A stretch of 64,000 nucleotides of DNA from an uncultured Pseudomonadales bacterium (GCA_964635905.1 CAZWPK010000001.1:352293-416292); one strand, 5' to 3'; counted from the stretch's first letter, positions 3,634 to 32,955 are shown. Notes: a model not told the origin generated them from the letters alone. Translations and numbers: made by a program.

Positions 3634-4548
3634 TTAGTGTTGCGAGAGTCGAAGTGTCCACAAATGTTGCGCGATTTTAACTGTTGCTATTTCTTGAGGT
3701 GTGTCGGAAGTAATTTCTTTCTGAACACTTTTGTAGAGCAGATGCTGAGGTTGAAGGGATTCTCCATCATAAACCTCAATACAGTAGCGTTCCTTTTCTT
3801 CAGATGTGAATAATGAATCAAACAATTCGTTGACACGAAAGGCCAAATTCACTGTTCCAATGAAGGTGGATTTTCGAAGCTGTGGGGTATCTATCGATGC
3901 ACCAGGAATGTATAAGGGTAACACTAAATAGAAACTGGGAGTATTGGTTGTGACTGCCCGAACTACGGAGGACAGTTGTGGGGAATTTGTGTCTCTAGCC
4001 CGCTCCAACACAGCTGCTCGTTGCGGTTCAGAAGTAAAGTCAAAACCCATCCCTTTGATCGTAACCTCATTGAGTGGTTCCATATACGTTATGACCATAT
4101 ACTCGGATTTACGTTCATCTGGGAAAATTGTAAAGCTCGGGTATCCAGTTTCTTGTAAAGACGTATCTTGCCGAACTTGGGCGATATACGAGAGCCGGTC
4201 TTCCTCCTTAACGCGCTTCATATACGCCACGGTTGCAACTCCTGGATATCGACGCGATATATCCAGGGATGTGACAAACTGTCTCCATTCTCTTCGAGTA
4301 ACTGAATCACTCGCACTAAACATGGCTCGAGCAGCGTAAAGTAAATTAATATTCGCGTTCATGCGTTCTTCAATTCGTGATGTCATTTGTCCGGCAGACT
4401 TTACAAACTCTTCGCGTTCAACGCGTTGGTCGGAATAGACTAAAGCTCGAAATGTCCAACTGGCAATCAGAAAAATCGAAATTGCGGCCAAGGTAATAAA
4501 CCCCCTTGTGACAAATATTGAAAAGTTGGATTGTTTTACGATCGCCAT
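3634..4548 (-). CDS. Membrane-anchored CHASE-domain sensor protein with no output domain.
   Basis: N-terminal TM helix, then CHASE-like motifs (YPGVATVAYMKRV, YMVITYMEPLNEV, GFDFTSEPQRAAVLERARDT, YLVLPLY). The ORF stops directly after the sensor domain. Confidence 0.5.
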   Translation of the reverse strand: MAIVKQSNFSIFVTRGFITLAAISIFLIASWTFRALVYSDQRVEREEFVKSAGQMTSRIEERMNANINLLYAARAMFSASDSVTRREWRQFVTSLDISRRYPGVATVAYMKRVKEEDRLSYIAQVRQDTSLQETGYPSFTIFPDERKSEYMVITYMEPLNEVTIKGMGFDFTSEPQRAAVLERARDTNSPQLSSVVRAVTTNTPSFYLVLPLYIPGASIDTPQLRKSTFIGTVNLAFRVNELFDSLFTSEEKERYCIEVYDGESLQPQHLLYKSVQKEITSDTPQEIATVKIAQHLWTLRLSQH

Positions 4549-4569
4549 ATCCGTTATGATGAAAGAGCT

Positions 4570-6876
4570 ATGTCTCGATTTCGAGCTTTTGTTCTTCTTC
4601 TTACCTTCATCATACCGTTTTTTGTGGCATTTTCTAGCGTATCTGCCTTTGACGATACAGGCACTGTTGCCGTGACTGGCTCGGTTGGAGCGTCTGCCAC
4701 TGATGTTTCGTTAGGAATAGAGAGTTCTGCAGGATCAGAAGTTTCATCAGGATCAGAGATTACCTACACAATCACCTACGGATCTACGTCACCAATCTCC
4801 TTTCCGGTGACACTAGTAGCTCAATGGGAGAAAGGGAGTATTGAAGGAGCTATTGGACCGACGGTAGAGCTATTGACCTATACAGAAGGTAGCGCTACGA
4901 CAGCCTATGGTGGTACTGTACCCGTCATTGACGTTGTAAACCGAAAAATAACCTGGACAATACCATCGTTTCCAGCGCAAACAGTGGATCAAACAGTTCA
5001 GTTCGTACTCACAACTACATCGGAATATCGAGGATCCAAGAATGTGACCGCCAGAGTAACTGCAATGGTCACTACTCCCTCCGGTGTTCCTGATAAAACT
5101 GTGGTAACCACCTACAAATATCAAGAACCAGCACAGACATCGACTCCAACACCCACTCCTTCCTCCACAACAGCACCTCTCGTCAGCTCCCCCAGTTTTG
5201 AGCAAATTGAATTGGTCGAGTTGTCCGATACGCGTGCCACCTTTCGTATAACCTCGAATTCTGAGCTTCAAGTGACAGCAAAGCTAGGGACCAACACTGC
5301 ATCCATGGCAGAACGTGTTACGACGGCTGCACGATCAAAGCTACAACCACTGACACTTGTAGAGCTTTCTCCGGATACAACATATTTTGTTCAGTTTACG
5401 GGGATCAATGGAGCTGGAAGTCGAGTGACATCAAGTATCTACACCTTTAAAACAAGTAGCAAAGCTAATCCGGATTTGATTGTCGATCGTAATTCTATCG
5501 TTGTATCGCAATCCTGGGGAATTTTATTTAATCAGTCGATGCTGCAAAAGCCTACTGACTTGCCGCATTTTTCAGTCAGTCAGAATACGATGCTAGATTT
5601 TCTCTTTCGGATCCCCCTATCCAGAGACTTAAAGGAAGCGACATTGTTGTTGCGGGACCCTTATGTTTTAGGAATCTCTTCGGATCCTGAAAGTGACTAC
5701 TCTTCTTCAACGACACGGTTAGTGGAAGTGAATCCTGGAACCTTTGTTGGAAAAATAAAAACTCCATTGTTAAGTCGGACGTATGAGATTGCGATTCGCA
5801 CGGAAGATATCTATGGCAATTTGTATGAACAGACCGTAGGTCAAACTACTGTTGTTCAACCATTTCGAGTGGTTGATACTGCCTCTAAACCACTCTGGGG
5901 TGCGGAAGTATTATTGTGGTCGTATCAAGATAAAACGCGACAATTTGAACTTGCACCGTTTAATGCGCTTTCCTTTCAAAACCCCATCATTACAAACAAA
6001 AACGGCACTGCGGATTTTTCACTGATCCCAGGTCGGTATAAGGCCCGTGTCAGTATGACAGGGTTTGAAACCAAAGAAGTGGAATTTGATATAACTGCGC
6101 CCCAAAGTGAAGATCTTCCCGTTGTATCGCTTCGGCCAGTGCGATTTGGCATCCTTGGACGCTTTATGACGGGAATAGAGCTTGGGCGTCAAAACTTGAA
6201 ACTCACCATCGGTGCTCTTCCGCAGGCAAATCCGACGGGTTCGCTCTATGATGTGTTACTGCCCTTTAATCTGGTGTTCCTTTTCTTACTGATTATCGCA
6301 ATTGTGTTTCAGTTACGCATTCTCCGGTTTCCATTGCGAACCCTACTCTCTCATTTGAAGTCGAAGAACTCACAGATGTTCTCAGTCGTGTTAGAGGACG
6401 CGTCAACTTCCAGTCGGGTTTCAAATGCCATGATCTATTTGGTGGATGAACAAAAACATTTAATTGTCGCTCGTGCAAAGACGGGATTGGATGGATCTGT
6501 TCAGTTCCCCTTGGCGCTCGTACCAGCCATAAGTTCCTTCTTCATCAAGCGTCATGGCTACATACTGCCCAGTCACCCAACGTATAACAAGGCTGAAATC
6601 CAAGGTAACGCAACGATCCCCGTAACGGTGGAGCAGTTACCAGCAACCACAGTACTGACACTCTTAGCTCAGGAACTTCGATCCATGAGTAGTGAATTTA
6701 TCGGCTTTGGCAGCGAAGCGTTTCTAACTCTCTCGTTATTATGTACGCTATTATTCACGATGACCTTAACACCGACTAGAACGATTGTCTTTGCATCTCT
6801 GACACTCTTAAATGTGGCGCTTTGGCTGATTATTGCGCGGCATTCGTATGGATTACGCATCCAGAAGAATGTGTAA
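4570..6876 (+). CDS. Large secreted, membrane-anchored protein with two carboxypeptidase-regulatory-like (transthyretin-like) domains and C-terminal TM helices.
   Basis: 781-aa ORF in the track (4531, TTG start); the first ATG is at 4570 (MSRFRAFVLLL...). CarbopepD_reg-like blocks (VVDTASKPLWGAEVLL...GRYKARVSMTGFETKEVEFDI and VVLEDASTSS...DGSVQF) alternate with hydrophobic helices. Confidence 0.45.
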   Translation: MSRFRAFVLLLTFIIPFFVAFSSVSAFDDTGTVAVTGSVGASATDVSLGIESSAGSEVSSGSEITYTITYGSTSPISFPVTLVAQWEKGSIEGAIGPTVELLTYTEGSATTAYGGTVPVIDVVNRKITWTIPSFPAQTVDQTVQFVLTTTSEYRGSKNVTARVTAMVTTPSGVPDKTVVTTYKYQEPAQTSTPTPTPSSTTAPLVSSPSFEQIELVELSDTRATFRITSNSELQVTAKLGTNTASMAERVTTAARSKLQPLTLVELSPDTTYFVQFTGINGAGSRVTSSIYTFKTSSKANPDLIVDRNSIVVSQSWGILFNQSMLQKPTDLPHFSVSQNTMLDFLFRIPLSRDLKEATLLLRDPYVLGISSDPESDYSSSTTRLVEVNPGTFVGKIKTPLLSRTYEIAIRTEDIYGNLYEQTVGQTTVVQPFRVVDTASKPLWGAEVLLWSYQDKTRQFELAPFNALSFQNPIITNKNGTADFSLIPGRYKARVSMTGFETKEVEFDITAPQSEDLPVVSLRPVRFGILGRFMTGIELGRQNLKLTIGALPQANPTGSLYDVLLPFNLVFLFLLIIAIVFQLRILRFPLRTLLSHLKSKNSQMFSVVLEDASTSSRVSNAMIYLVDEQKHLIVARAKTGLDGSVQFPLALVPAISSFFIKRHGYILPSHPTYNKAEIQGNATIPVTVEQLPATTVLTLLAQELRSMSSEFIGFGSEAFLTLSLLCTLLFTMTLTPTRTIVFASLTLLNVALWLIIARHSYGLRIQKNV

Positions 6877-7572
6877 TTACTGAACGTTTTCTCCGAGGAT
6901 GACTAACAGATCTGCACTGGGTTTTTGTTCGATTGCAGGAAGAGATCCAACGGTACCGCCATACGCTTTTGCTAGTGTTTGTGCTAAGGTGGGCTGTTTT
7001 CCAGAAAGATCAACAACCATAGTTGCGGGATATTGCTGCGCTGCAGTGGCTTTGTTTGTGACTTGAAGCTGAGGATATTCCGAACTAATTCGCTTCTCAA
7101 AAGCCGTTGCCAACCCGGTTCGAGTGGTGCCGTTATAGAGAGCCACGGGAATTCCTGTCGGTGTTAAGGAAGAGGGGGACGCGGATTCTGTTGCCTCTGT
7201 ATTGGTTCGAATAGTGGTAATGTCGATAACTTTTTGAATTGATGGTCGATACAAGATTGCTTTTCCTGCCTGGGTGTAGAGCAACACTTTGTCACCATTT
7301 TGAGACTGTGCAAAGAATGGTTGGCTTGCGAGTTTGTCTTTATCGGTTACTGTTGCAATCGTTGGCGTTTCATTTGGTGGTAACAGCATTCCCTTCTCAA
7401 TGGACGCAACAATGGAATTTAATTCTGCTTCTGCTTGAGCGGCTGCTTTGGCCGGGGCATCCGATAATTTCTTGTATTGGTAGTAATACCACCCTGCTGT
7501 GGATGTGGAAATCAGCAGGACGAGTCCTCCAAAAATATATGGTAGTACCCGAAACAAAGAAGGTCGTTGCAT
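6877..7572 (-). CDS. LytR_C-domain (LytR cell-envelope-related C-terminal) protein, N-terminally membrane anchored.
   Basis: TM helix near the N-terminus. C-terminal block ALYNGTTRTGLATAFEKRI...TMVVDLSGKQPTLAQTLAKAYGG...ADLLVILG is typical of LytR_C. Confidence 0.5.
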   Translation of the reverse strand: MQRPSLFRVLPYIFGGLVLLISTSTAGWYYYQYKKLSDAPAKAAAQAEAELNSIVASIEKGMLLPPNETPTIATVTDKDKLASQPFFAQSQNGDKVLLYTQAGKAILYRPSIQKVIDITTIRTNTEATESASPSSLTPTGIPVALYNGTTRTGLATAFEKRISSEYPQLQVTNKATAAQQYPATMVVDLSGKQPTLAQTLAKAYGGTVGSLPAIEQKPSADLLVILGENVQ

Positions 7573-7587
7573 ATCGATAGACTACTA

Positions 7588-8640
7588 TTAAAATGTTGCA
7601 CTGGCAATGAGAGTAATCGTGTCAGTGTAGTCACTGGAAGCGGGAGTGAGTCCACTTGCTTTGGCTTTTACCAGTATTGCACTTCGTCCACTACTGATCC
7701 GATTTCCTGAGGATGTCAGGATATTTCTGGAGGTTGTGGAAACAATTCCTACGTTGTCACTTGCCCCATTATACGGACTGACAGCGGCAAGCGGACCCCC
7801 TGAGGACTGCGTAACAGACTCAACACGCAAACCATACCCCTCATCTACCGATGCTAGGTTTGCTGTTGCTGAGGTCAGTGTATATGAGGCGTTAGTACTA
7901 GTTAACCCGGTTCCACTGGAGTAAATGTATACAAACGCACCGGACTCGCTATTGGTGTCTAGATCCACCCAAATCTTATTGGTTGCAGTTGTTACCGAAC
8001 CTGGTGATAATTGTCCAACCGCAATGGTATATGGTGGTCCGGATTCACTATCTGAGCTGGCGATATCAATATCATAGCTAAGACTTGGATTTGTCGTCGC
8101 CGCAGTGGAGGTGCTACTAAATTCTGTTTCAGTATATTTTGTCTGGACTGCTTTCACTTTGATTTTGTAGGTAGTGTTACTACTCAAACCAGTTACGAAT
8201 TCCCCACTAGCTCCGCCCCAATCTGCGTATGTTTGATAGACTGCAGTCGCTCCAACAGTGCCATCGGACTGAATGTAAGATGTCGTAGCAAAGTCATCGC
8301 TACTAATGGCGATGACATACAGCGTATCTGATGGGTTGCTCGTATTCTCCAAAATGAATTGCAGTCGATTATAGTAATTATCCGGGTTACTAAACGTAGG
8401 GGCACCTGGCACATTGCTTTGTCGTGCAAAGGTCAGTCCAGGGCCAAGATCATAGGCTGTACCAGTCAGTTCATTTCCCGATACTTCCCCAGATATCCCA
8501 CTGATGGAATACGAGGAAGAGTTTCCAACTCCAACTCCCCCGCTTCCCAACCCCATGTCATGCAGTTGGTAGTTTGTACTAGACGGCAGAGCGAATAAAA
8601 AAAAGCCAGCAAGTAGTGTTGAACGTTGACTCCAGTTCAT
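7588..8640 (-). CDS. Secreted beta-rich surface protein, a candidate WxL-like or CscB/C-like cargo. Paralog of the 12304..13362 gene.
   Basis: Signal peptide and an FN3-like stretch (TYKIKVKAVQTKYTETEFS). The C-terminal motif SGLTPASSDYTDTITLIASATF is shared with the paralog (SGLTEAASDYADTLTVVGSGIF). Confidence 0.45.
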   Translation of the reverse strand: MNWSQRSTLLAGFFLFALPSSTNYQLHDMGLGSGGVGVGNSSSYSISGISGEVSGNELTGTAYDLGPGLTFARQSNVPGAPTFSNPDNYYNRLQFILENTSNPSDTLYVIAISSDDFATTSYIQSDGTVGATAVYQTYADWGGASGEFVTGLSSNTTYKIKVKAVQTKYTETEFSSTSTAATTNPSLSYDIDIASSDSESGPPYTIAVGQLSPGSVTTATNKIWVDLDTNSESGAFVYIYSSGTGLTSTNASYTLTSATANLASVDEGYGLRVESVTQSSGGPLAAVSPYNGASDNVGIVSTTSRNILTSSGNRISSGRSAILVKAKASGLTPASSDYTDTITLIASATF

Positions 8641-8660
8641 ATCTAGAGTTGTAGCATGAT

Positions 8661-9257
8661 TTACTCTTGCATCTCAAGTGTGGAAACAAGTTCAGTAAAG
8701 GATACTGCGTTGGGATTGGGAATTCCCGTTGCCGCAATCGAAACAGTCCATTCCTCTGATGCCAGAAATATTGTCGATGTATCAGATTCTATAAATTGTA
8801 GTGTTTCCGGCCAGCCAGTAGCCGGAGCTTGCGTTGGAACAAACTGTTCTGGGCGTTGTAATCGGGTCAGTACAGCGGTTTGTTCCAAAAGCGGACCTTG
8901 AGATGGTTTGGCTTGAATTGCAAGTCGTCCACTTGGGATCAATTTTGCCTTGAGTATACAATCATCTTGCACTGGCAAGTGCTCCAGCGTATGTGGCCAA
9001 GGGATCGAGATGGAAAAGCACGGTGTTCGATACTGTTGTGTCCCTAACACGGCCGTGGTTGGTGGAGGTGTGGCCATGGATACTTCATTCCACATGCTGG
9101 TGCCGGTTTCTCGTTGCTCTCGGATAAAATCCGTGGCTCGCTTAGACAACACACCAGTGGAACGTAAAGCTGCTACCTCGTCAAATGTCGCGACACTATG
9201 AAATAAAGGAGCACAGATCACTGCAAATGCTAGTAACTGTAGGAATCGTATGATCAT
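8661..9257 (-). CDS. Small secreted hypothetical protein within the surface cluster.
   Basis: 198-aa ORF with an N-terminal hydrophobic signal. No recognisable motif. Confidence 0.35.
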   Translation of the reverse strand: MIIRFLQLLAFAVICAPLFHSVATFDEVAALRSTGVLSKRATDFIREQRETGTSMWNEVSMATPPPTTAVLGTQQYRTPCFSISIPWPHTLEHLPVQDDCILKAKLIPSGRLAIQAKPSQGPLLEQTAVLTRLQRPEQFVPTQAPATGWPETLQFIESDTSTIFLASEEWTVSIAATGIPNPNAVSFTELVSTLEMQE

Positions 9258-10276
9258 GTCTTCCTTTTAGACTGTTTCCAACTAAGATATGCAACGACAG
9301 CTAACACGGGACACAAAAGTAGTAGCGCTGAGGGGGCATCAAGGATTACCACAACCCCTTCTTGCGTAAATTTCACATCTCCTGGTTCCGAGTGACCGGT
9401 GATGTTTACCGTGTAAGCTAAGGATGGAAGCAAGGGTCGAATGCTTCGAAGTGACACGCTGAGTTCGCGTTGCGCCCGTGGAAGTACGATAAACGATCCT
9501 TCGTTAATTGTTCCCTCTAGTACAGTTCTGCCCCAGAGATCTGTAATGGTGATTGTTCCTCTGGGAATGACATGAATATTTCCCTGATTTTCAAATAGTA
9601 ACGGGACGGTCGAGGGAAACTGGGGTTGGAAAAATGATTGCAACAACTCGACCTTACCCAACGATAAGTGGTACTGTTCCCCACCAATTTTTCGGATTAG
9701 TAAAAAAGATGATAGTGCGGGAACAACGGAGGGTGTGTCCTGAATCGACGATGAATTGGAACGTATGACCACAGCCGCATAGTGTCCACCGGGTGCTAAA
9801 TTTAATTGGTTTGCTACCCGCACTGTTAATGACTGGGTTTGTCCGGCTTTCAGCACAAATGTGGCAGGTGTCACCGTAATCGAGTCAGCTATAGAAACTG
9901 ACTCACTCGTGACGGGTTTATCCGTGAGAATTGTTGTTCCCTGACTATCAACTTGCGAAAACAAGAAGACAGAGGCGCTAAACTCTAAGTCTTTTTCAGT
10001 GGAATTATGCAATGTGAGCTCTTGAGTCGTTTCAAGACTGCCTTCCGATAATGAGAGCTGAGCAAATGGTGGACTAAGCGTGACTGTCGAATCCGTTGTC
10101 TGTGCTTGCACGGACAATGGAGAAATCACTACTCCTAGATAGACGGTGGCGGCGGCGAACGCTGCAATTTGGAGCGAATAAAGCGTACGAACGAACCGAT
10201 AGTGGTTCGTAAACCAATTCCAATAAATATGACAATGAGCAAAACTGCGAGACATATTCTCCATGGGATTACCCAA
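9254..10276 (-). CDS. CscA-like surface protein (DUF916/WxLIP_PGBD plus DUF3324/WxLIP_HBD-like architecture) with a C-terminal TM anchor. The start is uncertain.
   Basis: Signal peptide, two beta-sandwich-like halves, motif NQGNIHVIPRGTITI, and a C-terminal TM (ALLLLCPVLAVVAYLSW) followed by KQSKRKT. Paralog of the next two genes. The ORF-track start overlaps the upstream gene by ~140 nt, so the true start is probably internal (e.g. ~10255) or a frameshift is present. Confidence 0.45.
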   Translation of the reverse strand: MGNPMENMSRSFAHCHIYWNWFTNHYRFVRTLYSLQIAAFAAATVYLGVVISPLSVQAQTTDSTVTLSPPFAQLSLSEGSLETTQELTLHNSTEKDLEFSASVFLFSQVDSQGTTILTDKPVTSESVSIADSITVTPATFVLKAGQTQSLTVRVANQLNLAPGGHYAAVVIRSNSSSIQDTPSVVPALSSFLLIRKIGGEQYHLSLGKVELLQSFFQPQFPSTVPLLFENQGNIHVIPRGTITITDLWGRTVLEGTINEGSFIVLPRAQRELSVSLRSIRPLLPSLAYTVNITGHSEPGDVKFTQEGVVVILDAPSALLLLCPVLAVVAYLSWKQSKRKT

Positions 10277-11211
10277 AACGATACAAAGGATTCTACAGGA
10301 ACATCGCGTTCCCCATTATCGTACACTAGAAGGAGGTGGGCTGTGTAGCGCCCAATCCGAAAGGTATCCGTTGTAGAAAAATCGACATTCAATCGTTCCC
10401 CTGTTTCCTTTCCATTTTCTTGCTTTGTCACATAATTGGGAAATCCTTCATTCCATTTAATGGAATAGGTTCTCGTAGAGTCTGGCAAAATCGTCGCTTG
10501 GTTGGGGTTAAGTGCCATGACCGCAAGGTCTTTCTCTCCTCGGCCGTCAATGAAAACATTTCCAGTAGGAGTCACATGCACGTTTCCAGTGTTTTGAATC
10601 GTGACAATAAATTCTTGTGGCAAAAATTCTACGATCGGTCGGCGTACAGAAAACCCTTGTAACGCGAGCTCTCGTTTTGCAAAGGGTGAGTTCACATTGG
10701 CTAAAAGTAAGATAGCTGGTGCTCCCGCAATGCTTGTGTTTCCATCAGATTTTGCCGCAACCGATCGTTCAACAATGATCGTATAGTAATACGAGAGTGC
10801 AGCATCTTTTGGAGGGGAGAATGTAAGCGGTATAGTTTTCCATTCACCTCCCTGAATAAGAATTGAGTCTTTGGTAATTTGGAGCCAAGAGAGATAGACA
10901 TCTTCTGGTTTTCCATCGACAAAGATTGGCTTGTTTCCTGTCGCATCTGCGCGAAATGTTCCGATTCGTATTCGGACCGATTCTTCTTGCGTTCCATTAT
11001 TTCGGATTTTAACTTCAATATCTTTTGGCACACCAGGATCAGTTTGTACATTCAGTGTCACTGGTGAAACGGTCAGCGAGAGTGGTTGGGTAGGTGGAGC
11101 AATACTGGCACTCGGTGTGCCGATCGATTCGGTATCGACTGCTCGTACTAACGAGATTGGAAGTCGATTGACTCCAATGGTAAGTAGGATGAGGGTAACA
11201 ATTAATTTCAT
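10135..11211 (-). CDS. CscA-like surface protein paralog (DUF916/DUF3324-like, C-terminal TM anchor).
   Basis: 358 aa with signal peptide. Motifs NTGNVHVTPTGNVFIDGRGEKDL and YTAHLLLVYDNGERDVPVESFVSFWVIPWR, then a TM and a basic tail. Confidence 0.5.
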   Translation of the reverse strand: MKLIVTLILLTIGVNRLPISLVRAVDTESIGTPSASIAPPTQPLSLTVSPVTLNVQTDPGVPKDIEVKIRNNGTQEESVRIRIGTFRADATGNKPIFVDGKPEDVYLSWLQITKDSILIQGGEWKTIPLTFSPPKDAALSYYYTIIVERSVAAKSDGNTSIAGAPAILLLANVNSPFAKRELALQGFSVRRPIVEFLPQEFIVTIQNTGNVHVTPTGNVFIDGRGEKDLAVMALNPNQATILPDSTRTYSIKWNEGFPNYVTKQENGKETGERLNVDFSTTDTFRIGRYTAHLLLVYDNGERDVPVESFVSFWVIPWRICLAVLLIVIFIGIGLRTTIGSFVRFIRSKLQRSPPPPSI

Positions 11212-12302
11212 GGTAAGGGTTCCACAACTTGTTTTTTAAGCTGCCAACGCATGAGGACATAGACTAGAATGGCGGGGATCATCGGAATGGCAATAGCAAG
11301 AGCAATGAGCCGAAACGGTATCACCCAAAACGTTACATACGACTCAATGGGCACGTCGCGTTCCCCATTGTCAAACACAAGTAAAAGATGAGCAGTGTAG
11401 CGTCCAAAACGAAACAAGTTTGCTTTAGAAAAGTCCCACGAGAGTCCATTGGTCGTGTTCACTGGAAACCCATCGTTCCAGGGAATTTCTAGAATACGTT
11501 TAGAATTGGGAAGCACAACACTGCTATTTGGATTTAATGGTAACACCGACAAATCCTTTTTCCCTTGTCCATCGATAAAGATATTGCCGATAGGAGTGGT
11601 ATGGACATTTCCAATATTCTCAATTTCTACCTGAAACGTTTGGGGAAGAAACTCAAGAAGTCTATGCGAAACATTAAACGCATTTAAGGATAGTTCTCGT
11701 TTGGCATACGGTGAATCCACACTCGCAAGCAGCAAGATAGCAGGTGCCCCACTTATTTGAGTTGCATTTCCATCCGGGTTTGTAGGTGATAAGCGCTCAA
11801 TGGTTAAGGCATAATAATAAGCAAACGCCGTGTCTTTAGGAGGGTGAAAACTAACTTTAATGGTTTGCCATTCCTGCGGCTGTATGACAAATTCGTTCTG
11901 AGAAAAGCTAATCCATTCAAGGTACGTATCATCAGGCCGCTTCTCGCGAATTTTTGGTTTGCCTGTTGACTGCTCTGCTTCCAATGGGAGTGGATAAATA
12001 CGGACAGGTTCTGGTTTTTGACCATTGTTGCGAACCCGAATTTCCGTAAACACTTCTTCTCCCGGAGACGTCGAAAGCTGTGCAACAATTGGTGATAACG
12101 TCAAATTAAGCTGATCAGAGGGAACAATAGAGGGGGTTGGCGATGCAGAAGAGCTTGCTTGTTCCAAGAACTCGATACCAGGGCTAGACTGAGCCTGAAC
12201 AGATCTTGGAAATCCAATTGTTGCAAGAACCAACACTAAAAGAATGCAAAGGACACGCATATACCGATTATTACAGAAAAAAGGAAGTCCGCTAGAGTGC
12301 AA
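11208..12302 (-). CDS. CscA-like surface protein paralog (DUF916/DUF3324-like, C-terminal TM anchor).
   Basis: 364 aa, a close paralog of 10135..11211 (YTAHLLLVFDNGERDVPIESYVTFWVIPFR; NIGNVHTTPIGNIFIDGQGKKDL). It overlaps the previous gene by 4 nt, which looks like operon organisation. Confidence 0.5.
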   Translation of the reverse strand: MHSSGLPFFCNNRYMRVLCILLVLVLATIGFPRSVQAQSSPGIEFLEQASSSASPTPSIVPSDQLNLTLSPIVAQLSTSPGEEVFTEIRVRNNGQKPEPVRIYPLPLEAEQSTGKPKIREKRPDDTYLEWISFSQNEFVIQPQEWQTIKVSFHPPKDTAFAYYYALTIERLSPTNPDGNATQISGAPAILLLASVDSPYAKRELSLNAFNVSHRLLEFLPQTFQVEIENIGNVHTTPIGNIFIDGQGKKDLSVLPLNPNSSVVLPNSKRILEIPWNDGFPVNTTNGLSWDFSKANLFRFGRYTAHLLLVFDNGERDVPIESYVTFWVIPFRLIALAIAIPMIPAILVYVLMRWQLKKQVVEPLP

Positions 12303-12303
12303 T

Positions 12304-13362
12304 TTAGAAAATTCCAGATCCTACGACAGTGAGGGTGTCAGCGTAGTCACTTGCGGCTTCAGTCAAACCTGAGATTGCTGCTCTTGGAATTAGTGTCACA
12401 ATATCGCCGTTGCCTGCTCCATTGGAGGAAGCGATCGGTTGATACGACGTTGATAATGTTCCACCCGAAGAGGTATCAGAACCATCGTACTCTGCATCAA
12501 TCGTTACTGTTCCACCACTACCAGCATCAGTTGTTAAGTTCACATCTAAAACATATCCTTCTGTACCCGCAGAGAGCGAGGAAGGTGCCGCATTGATCGT
12601 TCCCGTTGTGGCAACCGTATATGTCGCATTTGTTGAAGTTAATCCAGCGTTTGCGCTTTTGACCCAAGCAGTCCAGCCACTTGCAGAGTTAGTGGTGATC
12701 GTGATTCCCGTTCCAGTTCCGGAAGAGACAGAACCTGTCGTTAAAGTTCCTAGAGCCTGTGAGTTATTTGCAAAAGAAAACGTAAAGGTTGGTGCAACGG
12801 TTGCCGTTACCGCAATTTGATCATCGGAAATTGTAGGAACTGCGACATCTTTGGTATCTGCAGTGCCAGCATCCGCACCCGTACGTGTAAAGATCGTGTG
12901 AAGAATAGTTGTTGAGGCAGAAGGATTGGAGATTAATCCTGTTCCACCATTCGTTATGAAAAACCCATACGTTGTACTATCTGTGAGGGCAGTAATCGGG
13001 AAACGGATTGTATTCGATGATACTGAATCCGCCGTAGAGACACCTGGCATCGCTGTAACTCCAGCTGGGAGGCCGGTTGTTGAAACCGTGTAATTTGATG
13101 CTGTGGTTGAGAAATTGGTGGTAGATACCCATTCTGAATCAAGTGTGATTTTGATCGAGGTTTCGGTGGCTGCGGTCGCTGAGGTGGTAAAGACTACTAA
13201 GCAGTTTCCTGGGTTTGTAGCGGCTTTCATTCTGTCACAGCGCATATAGGTGTTTCCTGCGGCTGCGGCTTGGACTTGCGCCACTCGAAGGTGAATTGCG
13301 ATCGAGAAGAACACGAACGGAACAACGACTGCAACGGTAATACTCTTTTTTACAAAACTCAT
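12304..13362 (-). CDS. Secreted beta-rich Thr/Ser/Gly-rich surface protein, paralog of the 7588..8640 gene. Candidate WxL-like cargo.
   Basis: The track ORF extends to 13476, but the plausible start is the ATG at 13362 (MSFVKKSITVAVVVPFVFFSIA signal). Shared C-terminal motif and shared internal GLTSTNATYT block with the paralog. Confidence 0.45.
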   Translation of the reverse strand: MSFVKKSITVAVVVPFVFFSIAIHLRVAQVQAAAAGNTYMRCDRMKAATNPGNCLVVFTTSATAATETSIKITLDSEWVSTTNFSTTASNYTVSTTGLPAGVTAMPGVSTADSVSSNTIRFPITALTDSTTYGFFITNGGTGLISNPSASTTILHTIFTRTGADAGTADTKDVAVPTISDDQIAVTATVAPTFTFSFANNSQALGTLTTGSVSSGTGTGITITTNSASGWTAWVKSANAGLTSTNATYTVATTGTINAAPSSLSAGTEGYVLDVNLTTDAGSGGTVTIDAEYDGSDTSSGGTLSTSYQPIASSNGAGNGDIVTLIPRAAISGLTEAASDYADTLTVVGSGIF

Positions 13363-13426
13363 ACACTCATCATACGCACAGCCAAAAATCAGTGTCAAGC
13401 TGGACTTCTTACAGAATCGGTACTCA

Positions 13427-14083
13427 ATGAGGCTTATATTGCTCAAAACTCTTGAGGAAGCGGTTCGCAATAGCATGATAAACTTATCTCACATGAAAAG
13501 CGCACAGCCTTCAACAGACTATGAAATTCGTTCGTTCGCAAGCCAAACGGATTGGGAGGCCTGGCTAGAGATGTATCATGACTCGGTTAACGGTGTTTGG
13601 TTACAGTTTTCCAAAAAAGGATCTGCGATTCCCTCTGTAACGTACTCACAGGCATTAGATGTTGCATTGTGTTATGGATGGATCGATGGTCAATCTAAAC
13701 GGTTGGATGAATTTAGTTATTTACAGAAATTCACGCCAAGACGAACAAATAGTCTGTGGTCCAAACTTAATATTGAACGTGTCACTCGCCTAATTGCAGA
13801 TCACAAGATGAAGCCAGCAGGGATAGCACAATTCGAGGCTGCAAAAGCGGATGGCAGATTACAACGTGCGTATGATTCTCCTTCTACGATGCACGTTCCA
13901 GACGATTTTTTATCCCTACTGGATCAGCATCCGAAAGCGAAGTCATTCTTTGCGACACTATCTAAAACAAACGTCTATGCCATTACCTGGAGATTGCAGA
14001 CAGCTAGAACGCCGGCTTTGCGACAGCAACGTCTGGAATCCATTGTGCGTAAACTCAACAACCACGAGGTTTTTCATCAATAA
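13427..14083 (+). CDS. YdeI/OmpD-associated family protein.
   Basis: Motifs WEAWLEMYHDSVNGVWLQFSKKGS, ALCYGWIDGQ, FTPRRTNSLWS and PAGIAQFEAAK are characteristic of the YdeI/OmdA family. The start may be an internal Met. Confidence 0.55.
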   Translation: MRLILLKTLEEAVRNSMINLSHMKSAQPSTDYEIRSFASQTDWEAWLEMYHDSVNGVWLQFSKKGSAIPSVTYSQALDVALCYGWIDGQSKRLDEFSYLQKFTPRRTNSLWSKLNIERVTRLIADHKMKPAGIAQFEAAKADGRLQRAYDSPSTMHVPDDFLSLLDQHPKAKSFFATLSKTNVYAITWRLQTARTPALRQQRLESIVRKLNNHEVFHQ

Positions 14084-14527: not shown

Positions 14528-16468
14528 TTATTCTTGGTACACCGCTTGCAGGAGCAGACTTTGTAATTTCAGCCCATTGGAAGATTGCACTTGCCCTAAT
14601 ACGGATTGAGCTTGATCTCGATTTATTTGCGCCAGTACTGCGGTATATAAATCCCCCCATTCGTGTGCTGCTGGGTTCGGCACCGTTCGCTGCACTTCTG
14701 TCAGGATTGCTGGAAGGGTTGTAATAGTGGTCAAATAGTCACTTGCTGGGGTAAAGGGAAGCCACTGAATTCCGTACACGTGCATCGGATCCGCAGAGAA
14801 CCACGTTGCAAATTCGCGCTTGCCTCCCCAAATCAAAGAGGCAGTTGGACGTGAGTATCCGGCTGGAAAGGGGTTGTCTTGCGCAAACCAATAGGACTGT
14901 ATTGCTGATAAATCCGTTGCGAACAGCCACTTGGCGCGATTGGTAAGTTCTGGCTGCTTAGTGTATTCTCCCCATAACGCAATGGCATACCAAGCGTTTA
15001 ACGATTCAGAACTGGATTCTTCATTGTTTCCATCTGCAAATTGCGCACGTCCATCCGCCCAAGCATGACCTTCAAAGACAGAAAACATCCGTAACCGAGG
15101 AAAGCGATTGCTAGGATCTTCCAATGTGGCGATATCTGCAATTAACTCTTCCATTCGTGGTTGAAAACGTTCCTGTAGTGCCGGTCGGTACTTGACCAGT
15201 ATCGCTGCAGCTCGGATGTAATAGGCGTAATGAAAATGATGATCATTTCCAAATTCGTTGCCAAATTCTGGGTTCGTTGCCACCATCATCGTAGTAGCTT
15301 CGTCATAGCGAAATTGCGAAAGGGATTCGGTGGTGACGCGTTCTAAAAGATCTAACAATTGGTCTCGTTCCGTTGTCAGGGAATACAGATCGGCAAGTTG
15401 TACCAAAGAAGTTAGTGACCCAATCCATGTTCCTTTAAAATACACACCCTGCGGCATGGCATTTTTGCCAGTCAGAAACCCTTCTGCATCGAGCCGAATT
15501 GCAGCTTGTAGTGCTTCGACTTGTGAAGGCGAGGTAACGGCAGAAAATTGTGTTGGTAGGGCTGGAAGCGGCTGACTCGTCGTAAACTGAGTACCCTCTC
15601 GAATCGTTTGAACTCCAAGGACTGTTTCATACACTCCCAGAGTTGCGGGTAATGGTGTTTCTAATCGGTGATGCGGCCATGTTGTAAAGAGTATTGGTTG
15701 GTTATCTTTTGTAACGAAATGGTAGGTGGTACGCACAGTATCCCCCTCCACAGCGTAGGATGCTTGCGTGTGGGTTGGAATTGTCCACGGTAACATTGTG
15801 ACGCGTTCCAACAATGGCTGTGATTCCATCGGCAGAATAATCACTCGAAATTGCGAATCAAGTGAGGATAGGGTTGCATCCCGTTCGCTGGTGCGAACAA
15901 CGGTTCCATTATTTGCTTGGAACAAAACAGCAAGACGTTCATTGCGTAAAATCACACCTTGCTCTGTTTGCTCAATCAATCCACCTGGACACTGTAGCGT
16001 AATCGTCGACACATCTGTGACATAGGAAACAGGGCTTCCTGAGAGTAGATGCAGTAGCATGGATGACTGATCATTCCCGGCTGCGATTGTGACGTTCCAG
16101 TCTCCATAGGAGACCACAGAGCTTGTAGTCAGGGAAAACTCCGGTTTGATCGTACACAGTGTTGCAAACGGTGCTGCAACTAAGGTTTCTGTCGCACGTA
16201 CACTAGGATACGAAACTTCAATTCCTGTTTGAGAAATTTTAAATGCTCCAGGGTAGGAAAAGAGCGGCTGTGACGGAAAGGTAAACGCACTACTAAACCA
16301 AGCATTAGTTTTTCGCGCTGTTGAGACAATGGGACGTGTCAGTTCCACGCCCTGAGACTTTTGGGTATCTGGACTAAGTATATTTTTAGGGACAAATTTC
16401 CAAGCGGAAACTCCTCCAATAATTAGGAGGATTCCCATGACTGCAACTTGGAATGATTTATCGATCAT
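14528..16468 (-). CDS. Glycoside hydrolase family 81 endo-beta-1,3-glucanase, membrane anchored.
   Basis: N-terminal TM. GH81 hallmark NDHHFHYAYYIRAAAIL. An ExxxE pair of catalytic-type glutamates lies in GNNEESSSESLNAWYAIALWGEY. Confidence 0.65.
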   Translation of the reverse strand: MIDKSFQVAVMGILLIIGGVSAWKFVPKNILSPDTQKSQGVELTRPIVSTARKTNAWFSSAFTFPSQPLFSYPGAFKISQTGIEVSYPSVRATETLVAAPFATLCTIKPEFSLTTSSVVSYGDWNVTIAAGNDQSSMLLHLLSGSPVSYVTDVSTITLQCPGGLIEQTEQGVILRNERLAVLFQANNGTVVRTSERDATLSSLDSQFRVIILPMESQPLLERVTMLPWTIPTHTQASYAVEGDTVRTTYHFVTKDNQPILFTTWPHHRLETPLPATLGVYETVLGVQTIREGTQFTTSQPLPALPTQFSAVTSPSQVEALQAAIRLDAEGFLTGKNAMPQGVYFKGTWIGSLTSLVQLADLYSLTTERDQLLDLLERVTTESLSQFRYDEATTMMVATNPEFGNEFGNDHHFHYAYYIRAAAILVKYRPALQERFQPRMEELIADIATLEDPSNRFPRLRMFSVFEGHAWADGRAQFADGNNEESSSESLNAWYAIALWGEYTKQPELTNRAKWLFATDLSAIQSYWFAQDNPFPAGYSRPTASLIWGGKREFATWFSADPMHVYGIQWLPFTPASDYLTTITTLPAILTEVQRTVPNPAAHEWGDLYTAVLAQINRDQAQSVLGQVQSSNGLKLQSLLLQAVYQE

Positions 16469-16470
16469 AG

Positions 16471-17256
16471 TTATTTCTTAATAATGAATCCGTTCCAGAA
16501 TTCCGCAATCCGTTCGGCTGGATTTTTTGCCATCTCGTTTCGTGTCTGTGAAATCACTTCTAATCCTTCTCCTTGAATGAAGGATGCCCCTTCATTTGGA
16601 TCAGAGAAACGAAATTGTAGTTCATACTTACTTTCAGAATATGTCGTTGCCGGGATGACTCGCCCTGCACCTTCCAATGTCACACTAAAGATCTGTCCAA
16701 ATCGAGGACTATAGAGATCCAAGGTTTTGTCTTTTTGAACCTGGGTATATTGTTCATTGTTGACTAGTCCCGTTAGCTTAATATCATCATCCGCAAATAA
16801 AATCATCATAGGTGTGGAGTGATTTAAGTAGGCGCCTTCGGCGATATTAACCTGATACACAATTCCATCTCGTGGCGCTTTAATCTCAAATTGTGGGATT
16901 TGGGCTTGGAGTACCTTTGCTTCGGTTTGTGCGGATAGATTCGAATTTCCCAGTTCTTCTAGCGTTTCCAGTTTTTGAGTGATCGCGTCATTACTTAATT
17001 TGACGAGCGTATCCCCTTTGCGAACATGCTGACCCGCATCAACTTGAAGCGATTCCACCTTTCCTTCTACGGAGTTTGAGATCACCACTTCTGGTTTTTT
17101 GACATTGAGAACCAAGGTCTGTTTTGTCATATGGTAGGAGTTGATCTTTCGCGTGAGCGACAAGGTTGCGATCGAAAATGCCACGATGAAAATGATGACA
17201 AAGTAGATAGTGTTTACGAGTGTTAAGCGTAGGTGAACCAGGTTAGTTGATTTCAT
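16471..17256 (-). CDS. HlyD-family membrane-fusion/periplasmic adaptor protein.
   Basis: N-terminal TM. Biotin-lipoyl-like hairpin VESLQVDAGQHVRKGDTLVKL...IKAPRDGIVYQVNIAEGAYL. Directly downstream of the GT2 gene. Confidence 0.6.
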   Translation of the reverse strand: MKSTNLVHLRLTLVNTIYFVIIFIVAFSIATLSLTRKINSYHMTKQTLVLNVKKPEVVISNSVEGKVESLQVDAGQHVRKGDTLVKLSNDAITQKLETLEELGNSNLSAQTEAKVLQAQIPQFEIKAPRDGIVYQVNIAEGAYLNHSTPMMILFADDDIKLTGLVNNEQYTQVQKDKTLDLYSPRFGQIFSVTLEGAGRVIPATTYSESKYELQFRFSDPNEGASFIQGEGLEVISQTRNEMAKNPAERIAEFWNGFIIKK

Positions 17257-20862: not shown

Positions 20863-21106
20863 AGTACGTAAGAAAGAATAACAAACACTAAACTTACCGG
20901 TGTATGAGTTGTGTGAAAGAATGGTAAGTATGACAGTCTGGCTGTGATCCAGATTACAAACGAAAAGAGTGTCTATTATAGGGGGATGCAATCGTCGTTG
21001 CAAGCTCAGGTTCTTACGATAGTAAATCTATAGTCTGCTGGAAGTCTGTACTACTAGATTCTTTCTTCTCAAACTTTCTGGTAAAATAGCAAAGTCCCGT
21101 TGCGTT

Positions 21107-32602: not shown

Positions 32603-32955
32603 AGTAGCCGAACGGTTGAAAGAACTGTTTGAACAATGTTGTCAGATGAATGAATGGGATATTGTAGAGCTGAATGTGCAGAGGGATCACGTTCACCTGT
32701 TAATACAGATCAATCCACGGAACTCAGTAGCAGAGGTTATGCAACGATTGAAAGGTGGGAGTAGTAGAGTGATCCGCATGGAATATCCAGAACTAGAAGA
32801 GTTTTTGTGGGGGGATAGCTTTTGGTGTGATGGCTACTTTGCCGAGAGTGTTGGAACAGTGAACCAGACCATCATCCAAAACTATATTAAAAATCAACAT
32901 CAATCATGAGGTAGGAGTAAAATCCCCGCTCTTCAGAGCGGGGATTACATTAATC
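32430..32955 (+). mobile_element. IS200/IS605-family insertion sequence (tnpA only). Ends are approximate.
   Basis: Y1/HUH transposase gene flanked by a left-end hairpin (ctccagcctttgaaggctggag, 32441..32462), a GGAGCGAAGCGGAG motif, and a perfect right-end hairpin atccccgctcttcagagcggggat (32922..32945). Confidence 0.6.
32508..32909 (+). CDS. tnpA: IS200/IS605-family transposase TnpA (HUH Y1).
   Basis: HRLLVHLVWCPKYRRRVL, RDHVHLLIQINP (HuH), SFWCDGYFAESVG (catalytic Tyr region). The track start 32505 is a TTG; the ATG is at 32508. Confidence 0.85.
   Translation: MREYKTGASTKHRLLVHLVWCPKYRRRVLIGKVAERLKELFEQCCQMNEWDIVELNVQRDHVHLLIQINPRNSVAEVMQRLKGGSSRVIRMEYPELEEFLWGDSFWCDGYFAESVGTVNQTIIQNYIKNQHQS

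What the first reader, a model, noticed from the sequence alone, without database searches (positions are those of the whole stretch)
7588..13476. Csc/WxL-like cell-surface complex locus with three tandem CscA-like paralogs
Six co-directional minus-strand genes. Three tandem paralogs (9254..12302) each have signal peptide, two beta-sandwich halves with an N(Q/T)GN(I/V)H(V)xPxGxIxI motif, a single C-terminal TM helix and a short basic tail. This is the architecture of CscA (DUF916/WxLIP_PGBD plus DUF3324/WxLIP_HBD). They are flanked by two paralogous Thr/Ser-rich secreted beta proteins that share a C-terminal motif SGLT(P/E)ASSDY(T/A)DT(I/L)T(L/V), which are candidate WxL-type cargo, plus a small secreted protein. 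Such loci are described mainly in Lactobacillales, where they assemble sortase-independent surface complexes for glycan binding. Finding an expanded version next to GH10, GH81 and GH-A enzymes hints at a polysaccharide-capturing surface apparatus.
Basis: partly seen in the sequence, partly recalled or inferred. Interest (0 to 1): 0.6.

Follow-up and report, generated by a model that had tools for sequence, protein, structure and literature searches.

The report
Pam-type pilus operon in a Woesebacterium

Summary
Six, probably seven, tightly packed minus-strand genes encode two Thr/Ser-rich secreted proteins that share a C-terminal domain (A, C). They also encode three paralogs (B1, B2, B3) built as signal peptide, two Ig domains, TM helix and basic tail, plus a small protein (S).

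No window protein hits PF06030, PF11797 or PF13731. However, profile comparison links the B family to genuine Bacilli WxLIP/CscA (98%, E 2.6e-13). The N-domain matches DUF916 specifically, and two orthologs pass Pfam's PF06030 cut-off. E. coli PapD chaperones give no sequence signal.

A and C are not detectable WxL proteins. Only a post-hoc two-motif resemblance remains (p about 0.005 to 0.02).

The operon is conserved across Microgenomates/CPR genomes, and its glycosidase neighbours are not. Its parts match the Pam pilus operon described in a 2026 preprint: two-domain pilins joined by donor-strand exchange and PapD-fold chaperones with a TM anchor. I could not compare sequences with the Mycosynbacter Pam proteins.

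Verdict: a new member of a recently described kind. The WxLIP link appears in no paper my three literature searches returned.

The parts
12304..13362 (-). A: pilin-like secreted protein (352 aa from M39; the ORF extends to 13476). It has a signal peptide, a Thr/Ser-rich N-terminal beta domain with a Cys pair, a conserved linker strand (PTFTFSF) and a C-terminal domain shared with C.
   Evidence: A vs C C-terminal domain 99.2%, E 9e-20; conservation starts at M39 and peaks at the linker, the GWxAWVK strand and the C-terminal strand; 743 homologs, none with a Pfam domain; best 89% identical, from Candidatus Woesebacteria.
11208..12260 (-). B1: membrane-anchored protein with two Ig domains, chaperone-like (PamC/PamD-like; distant WxLIP/CscA homolog).
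   Evidence: AF2 pLDDT 86.8. Foldseek top hits are WxLIP 9i25/9i1y and the chaperones CsuC, CfaA, Caf1M and FimC. hhalign vs WxLIP 98%. TM helix plus basic tail.
10135..11211 (-). B2: tandem duplicate of B1 (48% identity) with the same architecture.
   Evidence: A second B copy is present in some related loci only.
9254..10255 (-). B3: divergent paralog present once in nearly every related operon. It has two Ig domains and a TM helix, and keeps the PGGHY motif. It is either a second chaperone type or a PamR-like anchor/terminator. Start is uncertain (ATG 10255 or 10264, or TTG 10276).
   Evidence: 99.9% to B; 98.0% to WxLIP; 23/33 orthologs hit PF06030, best E 2.1e-9.
8661..9257 (-). S: small (198 aa) protein with one N-terminal hydrophobic segment, belonging to a poorly conserved family. 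Role unknown; it sits where a tip or adaptor subunit could be encoded.
   Evidence: no detectable relation to A, C, B, WxL or E. coli pilins.
7588..8640 (-). C: pilin-like secreted protein (350 aa). It has a short signal sequence, a conserved Gly-rich N-terminal extension (about 19-71), an fn3-like N-terminal domain (about 75-181), a linker strand at 187-194 (SLSYDIDI) and a C-terminal beta domain (about 200-350).
   Evidence: 775 homologs, top 120 at 50% identity or more; AF2 pLDDT 82; residues 1-46 and 50-71 below 50; fn3 hits; CfaB pilin at E 1.1e-3.
6877..7572 (-). Probable seventh operon gene: TM segment plus a LytR_C-like domain (231 aa).
   Evidence: 15 nt downstream of C. PF13399 at 22.8 bits vs a cut-off of 22.2. 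Recurs beside the operon in several loci.
4531..6876 (+). Recurrent neighbour, a possible accessory or envelope component: a 781-aa protein with an N-terminal hydrophobic segment, Ig/fn3-like region, CarboxypepD_reg domain and several C-terminal TM segments.
   Evidence: PF13620 at E 5.3e-9. A homolog is adjacent in 14 of 35 long loci and in the distant operon L164 (E 3.8e-26). Hydrophobic segments.
13369..13398 (-). Promoter-like site (TTGACA, 18 nt spacer, TATGAT; 11 of 12 matches). It ends 6 nt before ATG 13362 of A, so the transcript may be leaderless.
   Evidence: This is a consensus match only, and the region's total count of such sites is not above shuffles.

Best explanation
The locus is a Pam-type pilus operon of a Woesebacteria/Microgenomates (CPR) bacterium.

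Shown here:
- It is a conserved operon.
- It encodes two secreted two-domain beta proteins (A, C) that share a linker plus C-terminal domain.
- It encodes two or three membrane-anchored two-Ig-domain proteins (B1, B2, B3). Their predicted fold matches both chaperone-usher chaperones and WxLIP. By sequence profile they are related to Gram-positive WxLIP (DUF916).

Inferred, by analogy with the cryo-EM and AlphaFold work on Ca. Mycosynbacter amalyticus:
- A and C are exported by Sec.
- On the outer face of the cytoplasmic membrane the anchored B proteins cap each subunit's incomplete Ig-like C-terminal domain by inserting a beta-strand.
- That strand is then exchanged for the conserved linker strand of the next subunit (PSLSYDIDI in C, PTFTFSF in A). 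The result is a thin linear filament grown from the membrane without an usher.
- B3, the divergent paralog that is always present, is either a second chaperone specific for one pilin or the membrane anchor/terminator.
- The filament probably serves surface or host-cell contact.
For: - Operon conservation: the same gene set recurs in two orders, A-B(-B)-B3-S-C or C-A-B(-B)-B3, in most of 35 long related contigs. A more distant version exists in L164.
- B1 model: two Ig domains plus a TM helix. Foldseek finds CsuC, CfaA, Caf1M and FimC chaperones at E 1e-10 to 1e-7 with TM-scores of 0.5-0.6 on the target, and WxLIP 9i25/9i1y at about 1e-10. JGI names two homologs 'P pilus assembly chaperone PapD'.
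- C model: fn3-like N-terminal domain, a confident single strand at 187-194, then a C-terminal beta domain. This is the architecture reported for PamA/B/E. The A/C homology begins at the linker. In A, conservation peaks at the linker, the GWxAWVK strand and the C-terminal strand, as reported for Pam pilins (Fig. S5 legend).
- The preprint describes PamC/D as PapD-like with a C-terminal TM helix, and reports Pam homologs in Microgenomatia. The closest named homologs here are from Candidatus Woesebacteria, which sits in the Microgenomates group.
- A and C are large, highly conserved, unannotated families (743 and 775 hits), as expected for major structural subunits.
Against: - I could not make a direct sequence or structure comparison with the M. 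amalyticus Pam proteins. The sequences were not obtainable, and PDB 25PZ/25QA are absent from the local copies. The assignment therefore rests on architecture, fold class and taxonomy.
- Donor-strand exchange was not modelled, because no multimer prediction was available.
- Foldseek of C against the PDB is dominated by fn3 hits. Only a weak pilin hit appears (CfaB, E 1.1e-3).
- There is no profile similarity between A/C and E. coli pilins, or between B and PapD chaperones.
- S and the conserved disordered N-terminal extension of C have no counterpart in the published model.
- The Pam work itself is a preprint, and its chaperone and assembly steps are AlphaFold-based.
Confidence: 0.7

Rival explanations
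1. This is a WxL/Csc-type, non-filamentous cell-surface complex. B1-B3 act as WxLIP/CscA membrane anchors. They hold A and C on the envelope through a divergent WxL-like C-terminal domain, and the N-terminal domains of A and C bind polysaccharide or host ligands.
For: - B/B3 are homologous to WxLIP: hhalign 98%, PF06030 passed by two orthologs and Foldseek hits to 9i25/9i1y.
- The gene content parallels the defining 'one WxLIP plus two WxL proteins with a C-terminal domain'.
- The A family keeps G-W-x-A-W-V-K where WxL has G-W-x-L-x-V-K. It also keeps a C-terminal Y-x-D-T-L-T-V strand where WxL has Y-x-T-x-L-T-W-x-L. The spacing is 120 residues against 121.
- The two-motif score exceeds composition-matched shuffles (median p 0.005 for A, 0.02 for C) and all 307 ORFs unassigned to any operon family.
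Against: - No PF13731 or PF11797 hit was found anywhere.
- hhalign of the A and C C-terminal domains against WxL equals the reversed control, and a WxL HMM finds nothing.
- The motif test was devised after the resemblance was seen, and its absolute scores are far below real WxL proteins (about -2 against a median of 83).
- Glycoside hydrolase neighbours are not conserved.
- Filaments made of architecturally matching proteins have been solved in a CPR bacterium.
- This rival partly overlaps with the best explanation, because WxL clusters might themselves work by strand complementation.
Confidence: 0.17
2. This is an unrelated envelope or matrix module. A and C would be abundant S-layer-like or matrix proteins, and the B proteins generic Ig-domain membrane proteins. 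Examples of their role would be adhesins or scaffolds linked to the neighbouring CHASE sensor, LytR_C protein and 781-aa membrane protein, with no chaperone role.
For: - Ig/fn3 folds are generic. B members also hit fn3_5 (39/45), CARDB and ASH-type models weakly.
- The conserved neighbours o781, o231 and the CHASE protein are not part of the published Pam operon.
- The N-terminal extension of C and protein S are unexplained.
Against: - The specific, colinear, domain-matched similarity of B to WxLIP, with clean negative controls, argues against generic Ig noise.
- A/C and B/B3 are strictly co-inherited in operons.
- The most conserved parts of A are a linker strand and C-terminal-domain strands. 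That fits strand exchange better than a lattice.
Confidence: 0.08

Closest known systems
Pam pilus operon of Candidatus Mycosynbacter amalyticus (Saccharimonadia): pilins PamA/B/E, tip PamT, TM-anchored chaperones PamC/D, anchor PamR (Troman et al., bioRxiv 10.64898/2026.03.03.709456)
   Same: - Found only in CPR bacteria.
[quoted passage not shown]
- Several two-Ig-domain proteins of PapD-like fold, each with a C-terminal TM helix.
- No usher.
- All are unannotated 'hypothetical' proteins.
- The preprint reports homologs in Microgenomatia.
   Different: - Homology to the Mycosynbacter proteins was not tested here.
- The operon is smaller and ordered differently: two pilins, one or two B plus one B3, and S.
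- C carries a conserved Gly-rich N-terminal extension.
- The conserved neighbours are a CarboxypepD_reg multi-TM protein, a LytR_C protein and a CHASE protein, not ATP synthase, CorB or MFS genes.
- The preprint relates the chaperones to PapD/FimC by fold and does not mention WxLIP/DUF916.
WxL / Csc cell-surface clusters of Bacilli: WxLIP = CscA (PF06030 DUF916 + PF11797 DUF3324 + TM) with small and large WxL proteins (PF13731) (PMC1534035, PMC9772566, PMC10599100)
   Same: - The B proteins have the WxLIP architecture and size.
- The N-domain is a detectable DUF916 homolog.
- The cluster logic is the same: an anchored two-Ig protein plus two secreted proteins that share a C-terminal domain.
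- WxLIP is predicted to insert a beta-hairpin into WxL.
- There is a weak two-motif and spacing resemblance between the C-terminal domain of A/C and WxL.
   Different: - The window proteins fail all three Pfam models.
- The DUF3324 domain is not recognisable.
- The NQIDKxxxYFDLK signature is absent; the aligned segment reads N-L-T-L-S-P.
- The second W-x-L motif is absent in A and C, and the first is absent in C.
- There is no LPXTG partner.
- The phylum differs: CPR rather than Bacilli.
Classical and archaic chaperone-usher pili (Pap, Fim, Csu, CFA/I, Caf1)
   Same: The predicted fold of B1 superposes on CsuC, CfaA, Caf1M and FimC. The proposed mechanism is donor-strand complementation and exchange.
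   Different: - No usher and no outer membrane.
- The chaperone is TM-anchored.
- The pilins have two domains, and the donor is presumed to be an inter-domain linker.
- There is no sequence-profile similarity to eight E. coli chaperones (0.6-3.7%) or 19 E. coli pilins (under 4%).
- A PapD HMM finds nothing in 1098 CPR ORFs.

Membership tests
WxL/Csc cluster (WxLIP + WxL proteins) | WxLIP N-terminal domain matches PF06030 (DUF916 / WxLIP_PGBD) | tested here: inconclusive
   Window B1, B2 and B3 give no hit at E up to 1. At family level the result is different. 10 of 45 B members and 23 of 33 B3 orthologs hit PF06030 at E up to 1. Two orthologs pass the gathering score (37.9 and 31.6 bits against 27.3). 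hhalign of the N-domain against PGBD gives 94.3%, E 1e-7, with clean controls. This makes them homologs, but the window proteins fall outside the curated family boundary.
WxL/Csc cluster (WxLIP + WxL proteins) | WxLIP second domain matches PF11797 (DUF3324 / WxLIP_HBD) | tested here: not met
   PF11797 appears neither in the window proteins nor among the 25 most-matched families listed for the 45 B and 33 B3 family members. hhalign of the C-domain against HBD gives 39.6%, E 3e-4. An HBD HMM gives no significant hit.
WxL/Csc cluster (WxLIP + WxL proteins) | Signal peptide plus C-terminal TM helix, 337-365 aa | tested here: met
   (B1 350 aa, B2 358 aa, B3 about 333 aa).
WxL/Csc cluster (WxLIP + WxL proteins) | Conserved NQIDKxxxYFDLK sequence near the N-terminus of the PGBD | tested here: not met
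   The aligned segment in the CPR family is p-x-N-L-T-L-S-P-v-x-l-n-L. The exact motif does not occur.
WxL/Csc cluster (WxLIP + WxL proteins) | At least two neighbouring proteins with a C-terminal WxL domain (PF13731, two W-x-L motifs) | tested here: not met
   No PF13731 hit for A, C or S, or for 37 C-family members. hhalign against WxL gives under 1% for the C family and the trimmed C-terminal domains, equal to reversed controls; full-length A gives only a 14-column N-terminal match at 37%. A WxL HMM gives 0 hits. Only a post-hoc motif and spacing resemblance remains.
Pam pilus operon (CPR) | [quoted passage not shown] | tested here: met
   The AF2 model of C shows the N-terminal domain at about 75-181, strand 187-194 and the C-terminal domain to residue 350. 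A and C share the linker plus C-terminal domain. The structure of A was not modelled.
Pam pilus operon (CPR) | PapD/FimC-fold chaperones carrying a C-terminal TM helix, encoded in the same operon | tested here: met
   operon linkage.
Pam pilus operon (CPR) | Restricted to CPR (Saccharimonadia, Microgenomatia) | tested here: met
   Most named homologs are Woesebacteria or Patescibacteria; two carry other MAG labels ('Undibacterium sp.', 'bacterium').
Pam pilus operon (CPR) | Sequence or structure homology to PamA/B/E, PamC/D, PamT and PamR of M. amalyticus | not testable with these tools
   The sequences WP_260763277-289 and PDB 25PZ/25QA were not retrievable.
Pam pilus operon (CPR) | Polymerisation by donor-strand exchange of the linker into the neighbour's C-terminal domain | not testable with these tools
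   No multimer prediction was available. The only indirect support is conservation of the linker and C-terminal-domain strands.
Classical chaperone-usher pathway | Outer-membrane usher, PapD_N/PapD_C chaperone and Fimbrial-family pilins | tested here: not met
   No usher-like gene lies in the operon. hhalign of B against PapD gives 0.6-3.7%, and A/C against pilins under 4%. A PapD HMM gives 0 hits.

The most novel reading that the evidence does not exclude
The Gram-positive WxL/Csc clusters and the CPR Pam-type pilus operons may be two branches of one ancient monoderm system. In it, a membrane-anchored two-Ig-domain protein (WxLIP, PamC/D, the B family) completes an incomplete Ig-like C-terminal domain by beta-strand insertion. 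That domain would be the WxL domain in one branch and the Pam pilin C-terminal domain in the other.

Under this reading, the C-terminal domain of A and C is a divergent WxL domain. The A family would still carry the first G-W motif at the canonical spacing. WxL proteins would then be pilin-like subunits, or Pam pilins polymerising WxL proteins. The origin of Pam pili would lie with WxLIP-type rather than PapD-type chaperones.
Probability: 0.35. Interest if true: 0.7.

Novelty: new member of a known kind. Interest (0 to 1): 0.45.

Why it matters
CPR/Patescibacteria may make up a large share of bacterial diversity and live attached to other cells, and most of their surface proteins have no annotation. 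This locus gives a Woesebacteria example of the filament system first seen in 2026 in one cultivated Saccharimonadia species. It also shows that the core gene set (two pilin-like genes, one or two B genes and one B3 gene) is conserved in most related Microgenomates-type contigs long enough to judge.

The extra finding concerns evolution. The anchored chaperone-like proteins are sequence homologs of DUF916/WxLIP (CscA) from lactic acid bacteria and enterococci, not of PapD. This suggests where Pam pili came from. It also raises a testable idea about how the long-puzzling WxL clusters hold their cargo, namely strand complementation.

The finding corrects a tempting but unsupported link to polysaccharide degradation.

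Tried and rejected
- Direct Pfam and NCBIfam scans of the six proteins gave nothing significant.
- Profiles of the B and C families against PDB sequences gave no meaningful hit.
- Five forms of hhalign comparison between A, C, S or the merged C-terminal-domain alignment and WxL gave no significant similarity; for the trimmed C-terminal domains the scores equalled reversed controls.
- S and o231 were compared with every other family and gave nothing.
- The 1.84-billion-protein profile search showed a very large family (10,621 clusters). It lists only the top 150, so the distant tail, including any Saccharimonadia or Firmicutes members, could not be inspected.
- Cluster look-up gave no organism names.
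- The preprint's supplement holds no sequences.
- I considered the operon as part of a glycan-utilisation locus with GH81 and GH10 and rejected it. They are separate transcription units and the association is not conserved.
- I considered a classical chaperone-usher system and rejected it. There is no usher and no sequence signal.

Full report
**What is there**

The region holds six tightly packed minus-strand ORFs: A 12304-13476, B1 11208-12302, B2 10135-11211, B3 9254-10276, S 8661-9257 and C 7588-8640. A seventh co-directional gene (6877-7572) starts 15 nt after C.

- B1 and B2 are 48% identical, and B1 and B3 are 25% identical.
- A and C share about 150 C-terminal residues (38% identity, E 2e-15).
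- Simple sequence analysis confirms N-terminal hydrophobic segments on the B proteins, S and A, and a shorter one on C. It also confirms a C-terminal hydrophobic helix plus basic tail on B1-B3, and 29-30% Ser+Thr with pI of about 4.3 for A and C.
- Family conservation places the real start of A at M39 (13362). A strong promoter-like site ends 6 nt upstream of it.
- B1 starts at 12260.
- For B3, only the starts at 10255, 10264 or 10276 keep the signal peptide.

The NxGNxHxxPxG motif occurs once per protein, in the second domain.

No window protein hits PF06030, PF11797 or PF13731 even at E up to 1. Only weak generic Ig models appear, and NCBIfam gives nothing. Taken literally, the refutation criterion is met. 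The question needed deeper tools.

**Whose genes these are**

B1, C and A each have hundreds of homologs (170, 775 and 743 hits at E up to 0.001). None is functionally named and almost none has a Pfam domain. Most of the few named ones come from Candidatus Woesebacteria or 'Patescibacteria group'; two carry other MAG labels ('Undibacterium sp.', 'bacterium'). Woesebacteria belongs to the Microgenomates group. A profile of the B family finds 10,621 clusters at 50% identity in 1.84 billion proteins.

**Conservation of the operon**

Gene tables from six contigs, and ORF classification in 88 related contigs, show the same module in two orders: A-B(-B)-B3-S-C or C-A-B(-B)-B3.

- Where the flanks are long enough to judge, the module carries one or two B genes, almost always a single B3-type gene, and both A and C.
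- The window's 'triplet' is thus a duplicated B plus the conserved, distinct B3 lineage.
- A 700-800-aa multi-TM protein with a CarboxypepD_reg domain (window 4531-6876) recurs nearby. So do a TM + LytR_C protein (6877-7572) and a CHASE protein (3634-4548).
- A more distant operon (L164) has pilin-like, B-like, pilin-like, B-like and o781-like genes. Its pilin-like proteins end in ...AGDYSSIITYTCTANF.

Glycoside hydrolases are not part of the conserved context. GH81 in the window belongs to a GT2/HlyD/GH81 operon beyond a plus-strand gene, and GH10 lies 12 kb away.

**Structure**

The AF2 model of B1 (pLDDT 86.8) shows a signal helix, two beta-sandwiches and a long C-terminal helix. The top Foldseek hits against the PDB fall into three groups:

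- ASH/SPD-2 Ig pairs.
- The newly released E. faecium WxLIP structures (9i25_C at E 9e-11, 9i1y_B at 2e-10, 9i1y_A at 3.7e-10).
- The chaperone-usher chaperones CsuC, CfaA, Caf1M and FimC (E 1e-10 to 1e-7).

The AF2 model of C (pLDDT 82) has four parts: a low-confidence N-terminal stretch (residues 1-46 and 50-71 below pLDDT 50) that is nevertheless conserved from about residue 19, an fn3-like domain, a confident single strand at 187-194, and a C-terminal beta domain. Its PDB hits are dominated by fn3, with the CfaB pilin at E 1.1e-3.

**Is the B family really CscA/WxLIP?**

I retrieved 68 Bacilli loci using the published WxLIP signature NQIDKxxxYFDLK. From them I extracted 53 WxLIPs and 50 small WxL proteins. 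A sample was confirmed against Pfam, with PF06030 + PF11797 at E 1e-35 to 1e-54 and PF13731 at up to 2e-69.

Profile-profile results:

| Comparison | Probability | E-value |
|---|---|---|
| B family vs WxLIP | 98.0% | 2.6e-13 |
| B3 family vs WxLIP | 98.0% | 1.8e-13 |
| B vs WxLIP, signal peptide and TM removed | 95.0% | 3.9e-8 |
| N-domain vs PGBD (DUF916) | 94.3% | about 1e-7 |
| C-domain vs HBD (DUF3324) | 39.6% | 3e-4 |
| Cross-domain and reversed controls | 2.4% or less | not significant |
| B vs eight E. coli PapD-type chaperones | 0.6-3.7% | not significant |

- Pfam itself recognises relatives. 23 of 33 B3 orthologs hit PF06030 at E up to 1 (best E 2.1e-9). Two orthologs exceed the gathering score.
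- A Bacilli PGBD HMM picks out only B/B3 proteins among 1098 CPR ORFs.

So the N-terminal domain is a genuine, distant DUF916 homolog. The overall architecture equals WxLIP. The second domain is not demonstrably DUF3324.

**Are A and C WxL proteins?**

By every standard test, no.

- No PF13731 hits.
- hhalign against WxL gives under 1% for the C family and for the trimmed A and C C-terminal domains, no better than reversed controls; full-length A gives only a 14-column N-terminal match at 37%.
- A WxL HMM finds nothing.

One lead remains. The A family has an almost invariant G-W-x-A-W-V-K where WxL has G-W-x-L-x-V-K. A and C end in Y-x-D-T-[IL]-T-[LV] where WxL has Y-x-T-x-L-T-W-x-L. The spacing is 120 residues against 121.

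I scored this with PSSMs of the two literature-defined WxL motifs. The A family scored a median of -2.5 and the C family -11.5. The 307 ORFs unassigned to any operon family scored a median of -32 and a maximum of -11.5. Composition-matched shuffles gave a median empirical p of 0.005 for A and 0.02 for C. This test was designed after I had seen the match. Family members are not independent, and real WxL proteins score about 83. It is suggestive only.

**What it most likely is**

A 2026 preprint (bioRxiv 10.64898/2026.03.03.709456) solved thin filaments of the CPR bacterium Ca. Mycosynbacter amalyticus.

- Pilins PamA and PamB are built as a beta-sandwich N-terminal domain, a linker strand and a truncated Ig-like C-terminal domain.
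- They polymerise by donating the linker to the next subunit.
- The operon also encodes PamE, a tip subunit PamT, two PapD/FimC-fold chaperones with a C-terminal TM helix (PamC, PamD), and a TM-anchored two-FnIII protein, PamR.
- Homologs are reported only in CPR, mainly Saccharimonadia and Microgenomatia.

The window's operon matches component by component. A and C fit the pilin plan. They share exactly the linker plus C-terminal-domain region, and conservation in A peaks there. B1 and B2 fit the TM-anchored chaperones. B3 fits either a second chaperone or PamR. S is a candidate minor subunit.

I could not obtain the Mycosynbacter sequences or the coordinates 25PZ/25QA, so homology to the Pam proteins is inferred, not shown. 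I put 0.70 on this reading.

**Mechanism, with status**

Shown:
- Operon structure and its conservation.
- Domain architectures.
- Fold class.
- WxLIP homology.

Inferred:
- Sec export.
- Capping of the pilin C-terminal domain by a strand from the anchored B proteins.
- Exchange of that strand for the next subunit's linker strand.
- Usher-free growth from the cytoplasmic membrane.
- A role in host or surface contact.

Unexplained:
- The conserved Gly-rich N-terminal extension of C.
- Protein S.
- The recurrent o781, LytR_C and CHASE neighbours.

**Comparison and novelty**

The locus works like, and is probably a member of, the Pam pilus family. It is a distant relative of WxL/Csc clusters through its B proteins, but it fails the membership tests for that family (no WxL proteins, no DUF3324). 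It is not a classical chaperone-usher system.

The preprint does not mention WxL or DUF916. Of the three literature searches I ran, the one combining 'WxL' with donor-strand and pilus terms listed no paper that contains 'WxL' among its 12 results. Linking Pam-type chaperones to WxLIP therefore appears in no paper those searches returned. That is a limited claim, because the library is incomplete.

Overall this is a new member of a recently described kind, with a modestly interesting evolutionary lead.

Noticed in passing
window 6877-7572 (-): A 231-aa protein with one TM segment and a LytR_C-like domain (PF13399, 22.8 bits against a cut-off of 22.2). It starts 15 nt after C and is probably a seventh operon gene. 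It recurs beside the operon in several related contigs.
   Followed up: partly
window 4531-6876 (+); L164:11145-12638: A 781-aa protein with an N-terminal hydrophobic segment, Ig/fn3-like region, CarboxypepD_reg domain (E 5.3e-9) and several C-terminal TM segments, convergent on the operon. Homologs sit next to the operon in 14 of 35 long loci, and also in a much more distant operon (E 3.8e-26). It may be an unrecognised envelope or assembly component.
   Followed up: partly
window 3634-4548 (-): A CHASE-domain protein (E 3e-42) that recurs next to the operon in several Microgenomates-type contigs. It could be a sensor linked to the filament system.
   Followed up: no
window 7588-8640, residues about 19-71 of C: A Gly/Ser-rich N-terminal stretch with invariant positions across the family but AF2 pLDDT below 50. 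It is absent from A and is not accounted for by the published Pam pilin plan.
   Followed up: partly
window 13369-13398 (-): A near-consensus -35/-10 pair (11 of 12 matches) ending 6 nt before the likely true start codon of A (13362). This hints at a leaderless transcript, and suggests the 390-aa gene call for A is 38 codons too long.
   Followed up: partly
window 10135-10276: The only start codons that keep the B3 signal peptide overlap the 3' end of B2 by 121-142 nt. The public gene call (285 aa) avoids the overlap but removes the signal peptide.
   Followed up: partly
window 14528-18794 (-): A separate operon of a GT2/cellulose-synthase-like glycosyltransferase, a HlyD-like membrane-fusion protein and a GH81 endo-beta-1,3-glucanase-family protein. 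It looks like a beta-glucan synthesis and trimming module. An unannotated 744-aa ORF lies upstream (18769-21003).
   Followed up: no
window 25582-27438 (-): A GH10 xylanase-family domain (E 6.6e-68) occupies only residues 297-613. The N-terminal 290 or so residues have no Pfam match.
   Followed up: no
window 1-3579 (-) and 32945-36985 (-): Two very large ORFs (more than 1193 aa, running off the window start, and 1346 aa) have no Pfam match. In related contigs the gene in the first position is a giant Laminin_G_3 protein.
   Followed up: no
L115:2965-3903 and L145:11144-12178: Two CPR orthologs of the B3/B proteins pass Pfam's gathering score for WxLIP_PGBD (37.9 and 31.6 bits). DUF916 is therefore not confined to Firmicutes-type WxL clusters.
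   Followed up: yes
window 59346-61001 (-); L076:17753-19438: A large serine recombinase (Resolvase + Recombinase + Zn ribbon) lies in the window. Another lies about 6.7 kb from the operon in L076. No link to the operon was examined.
   Followed up: no
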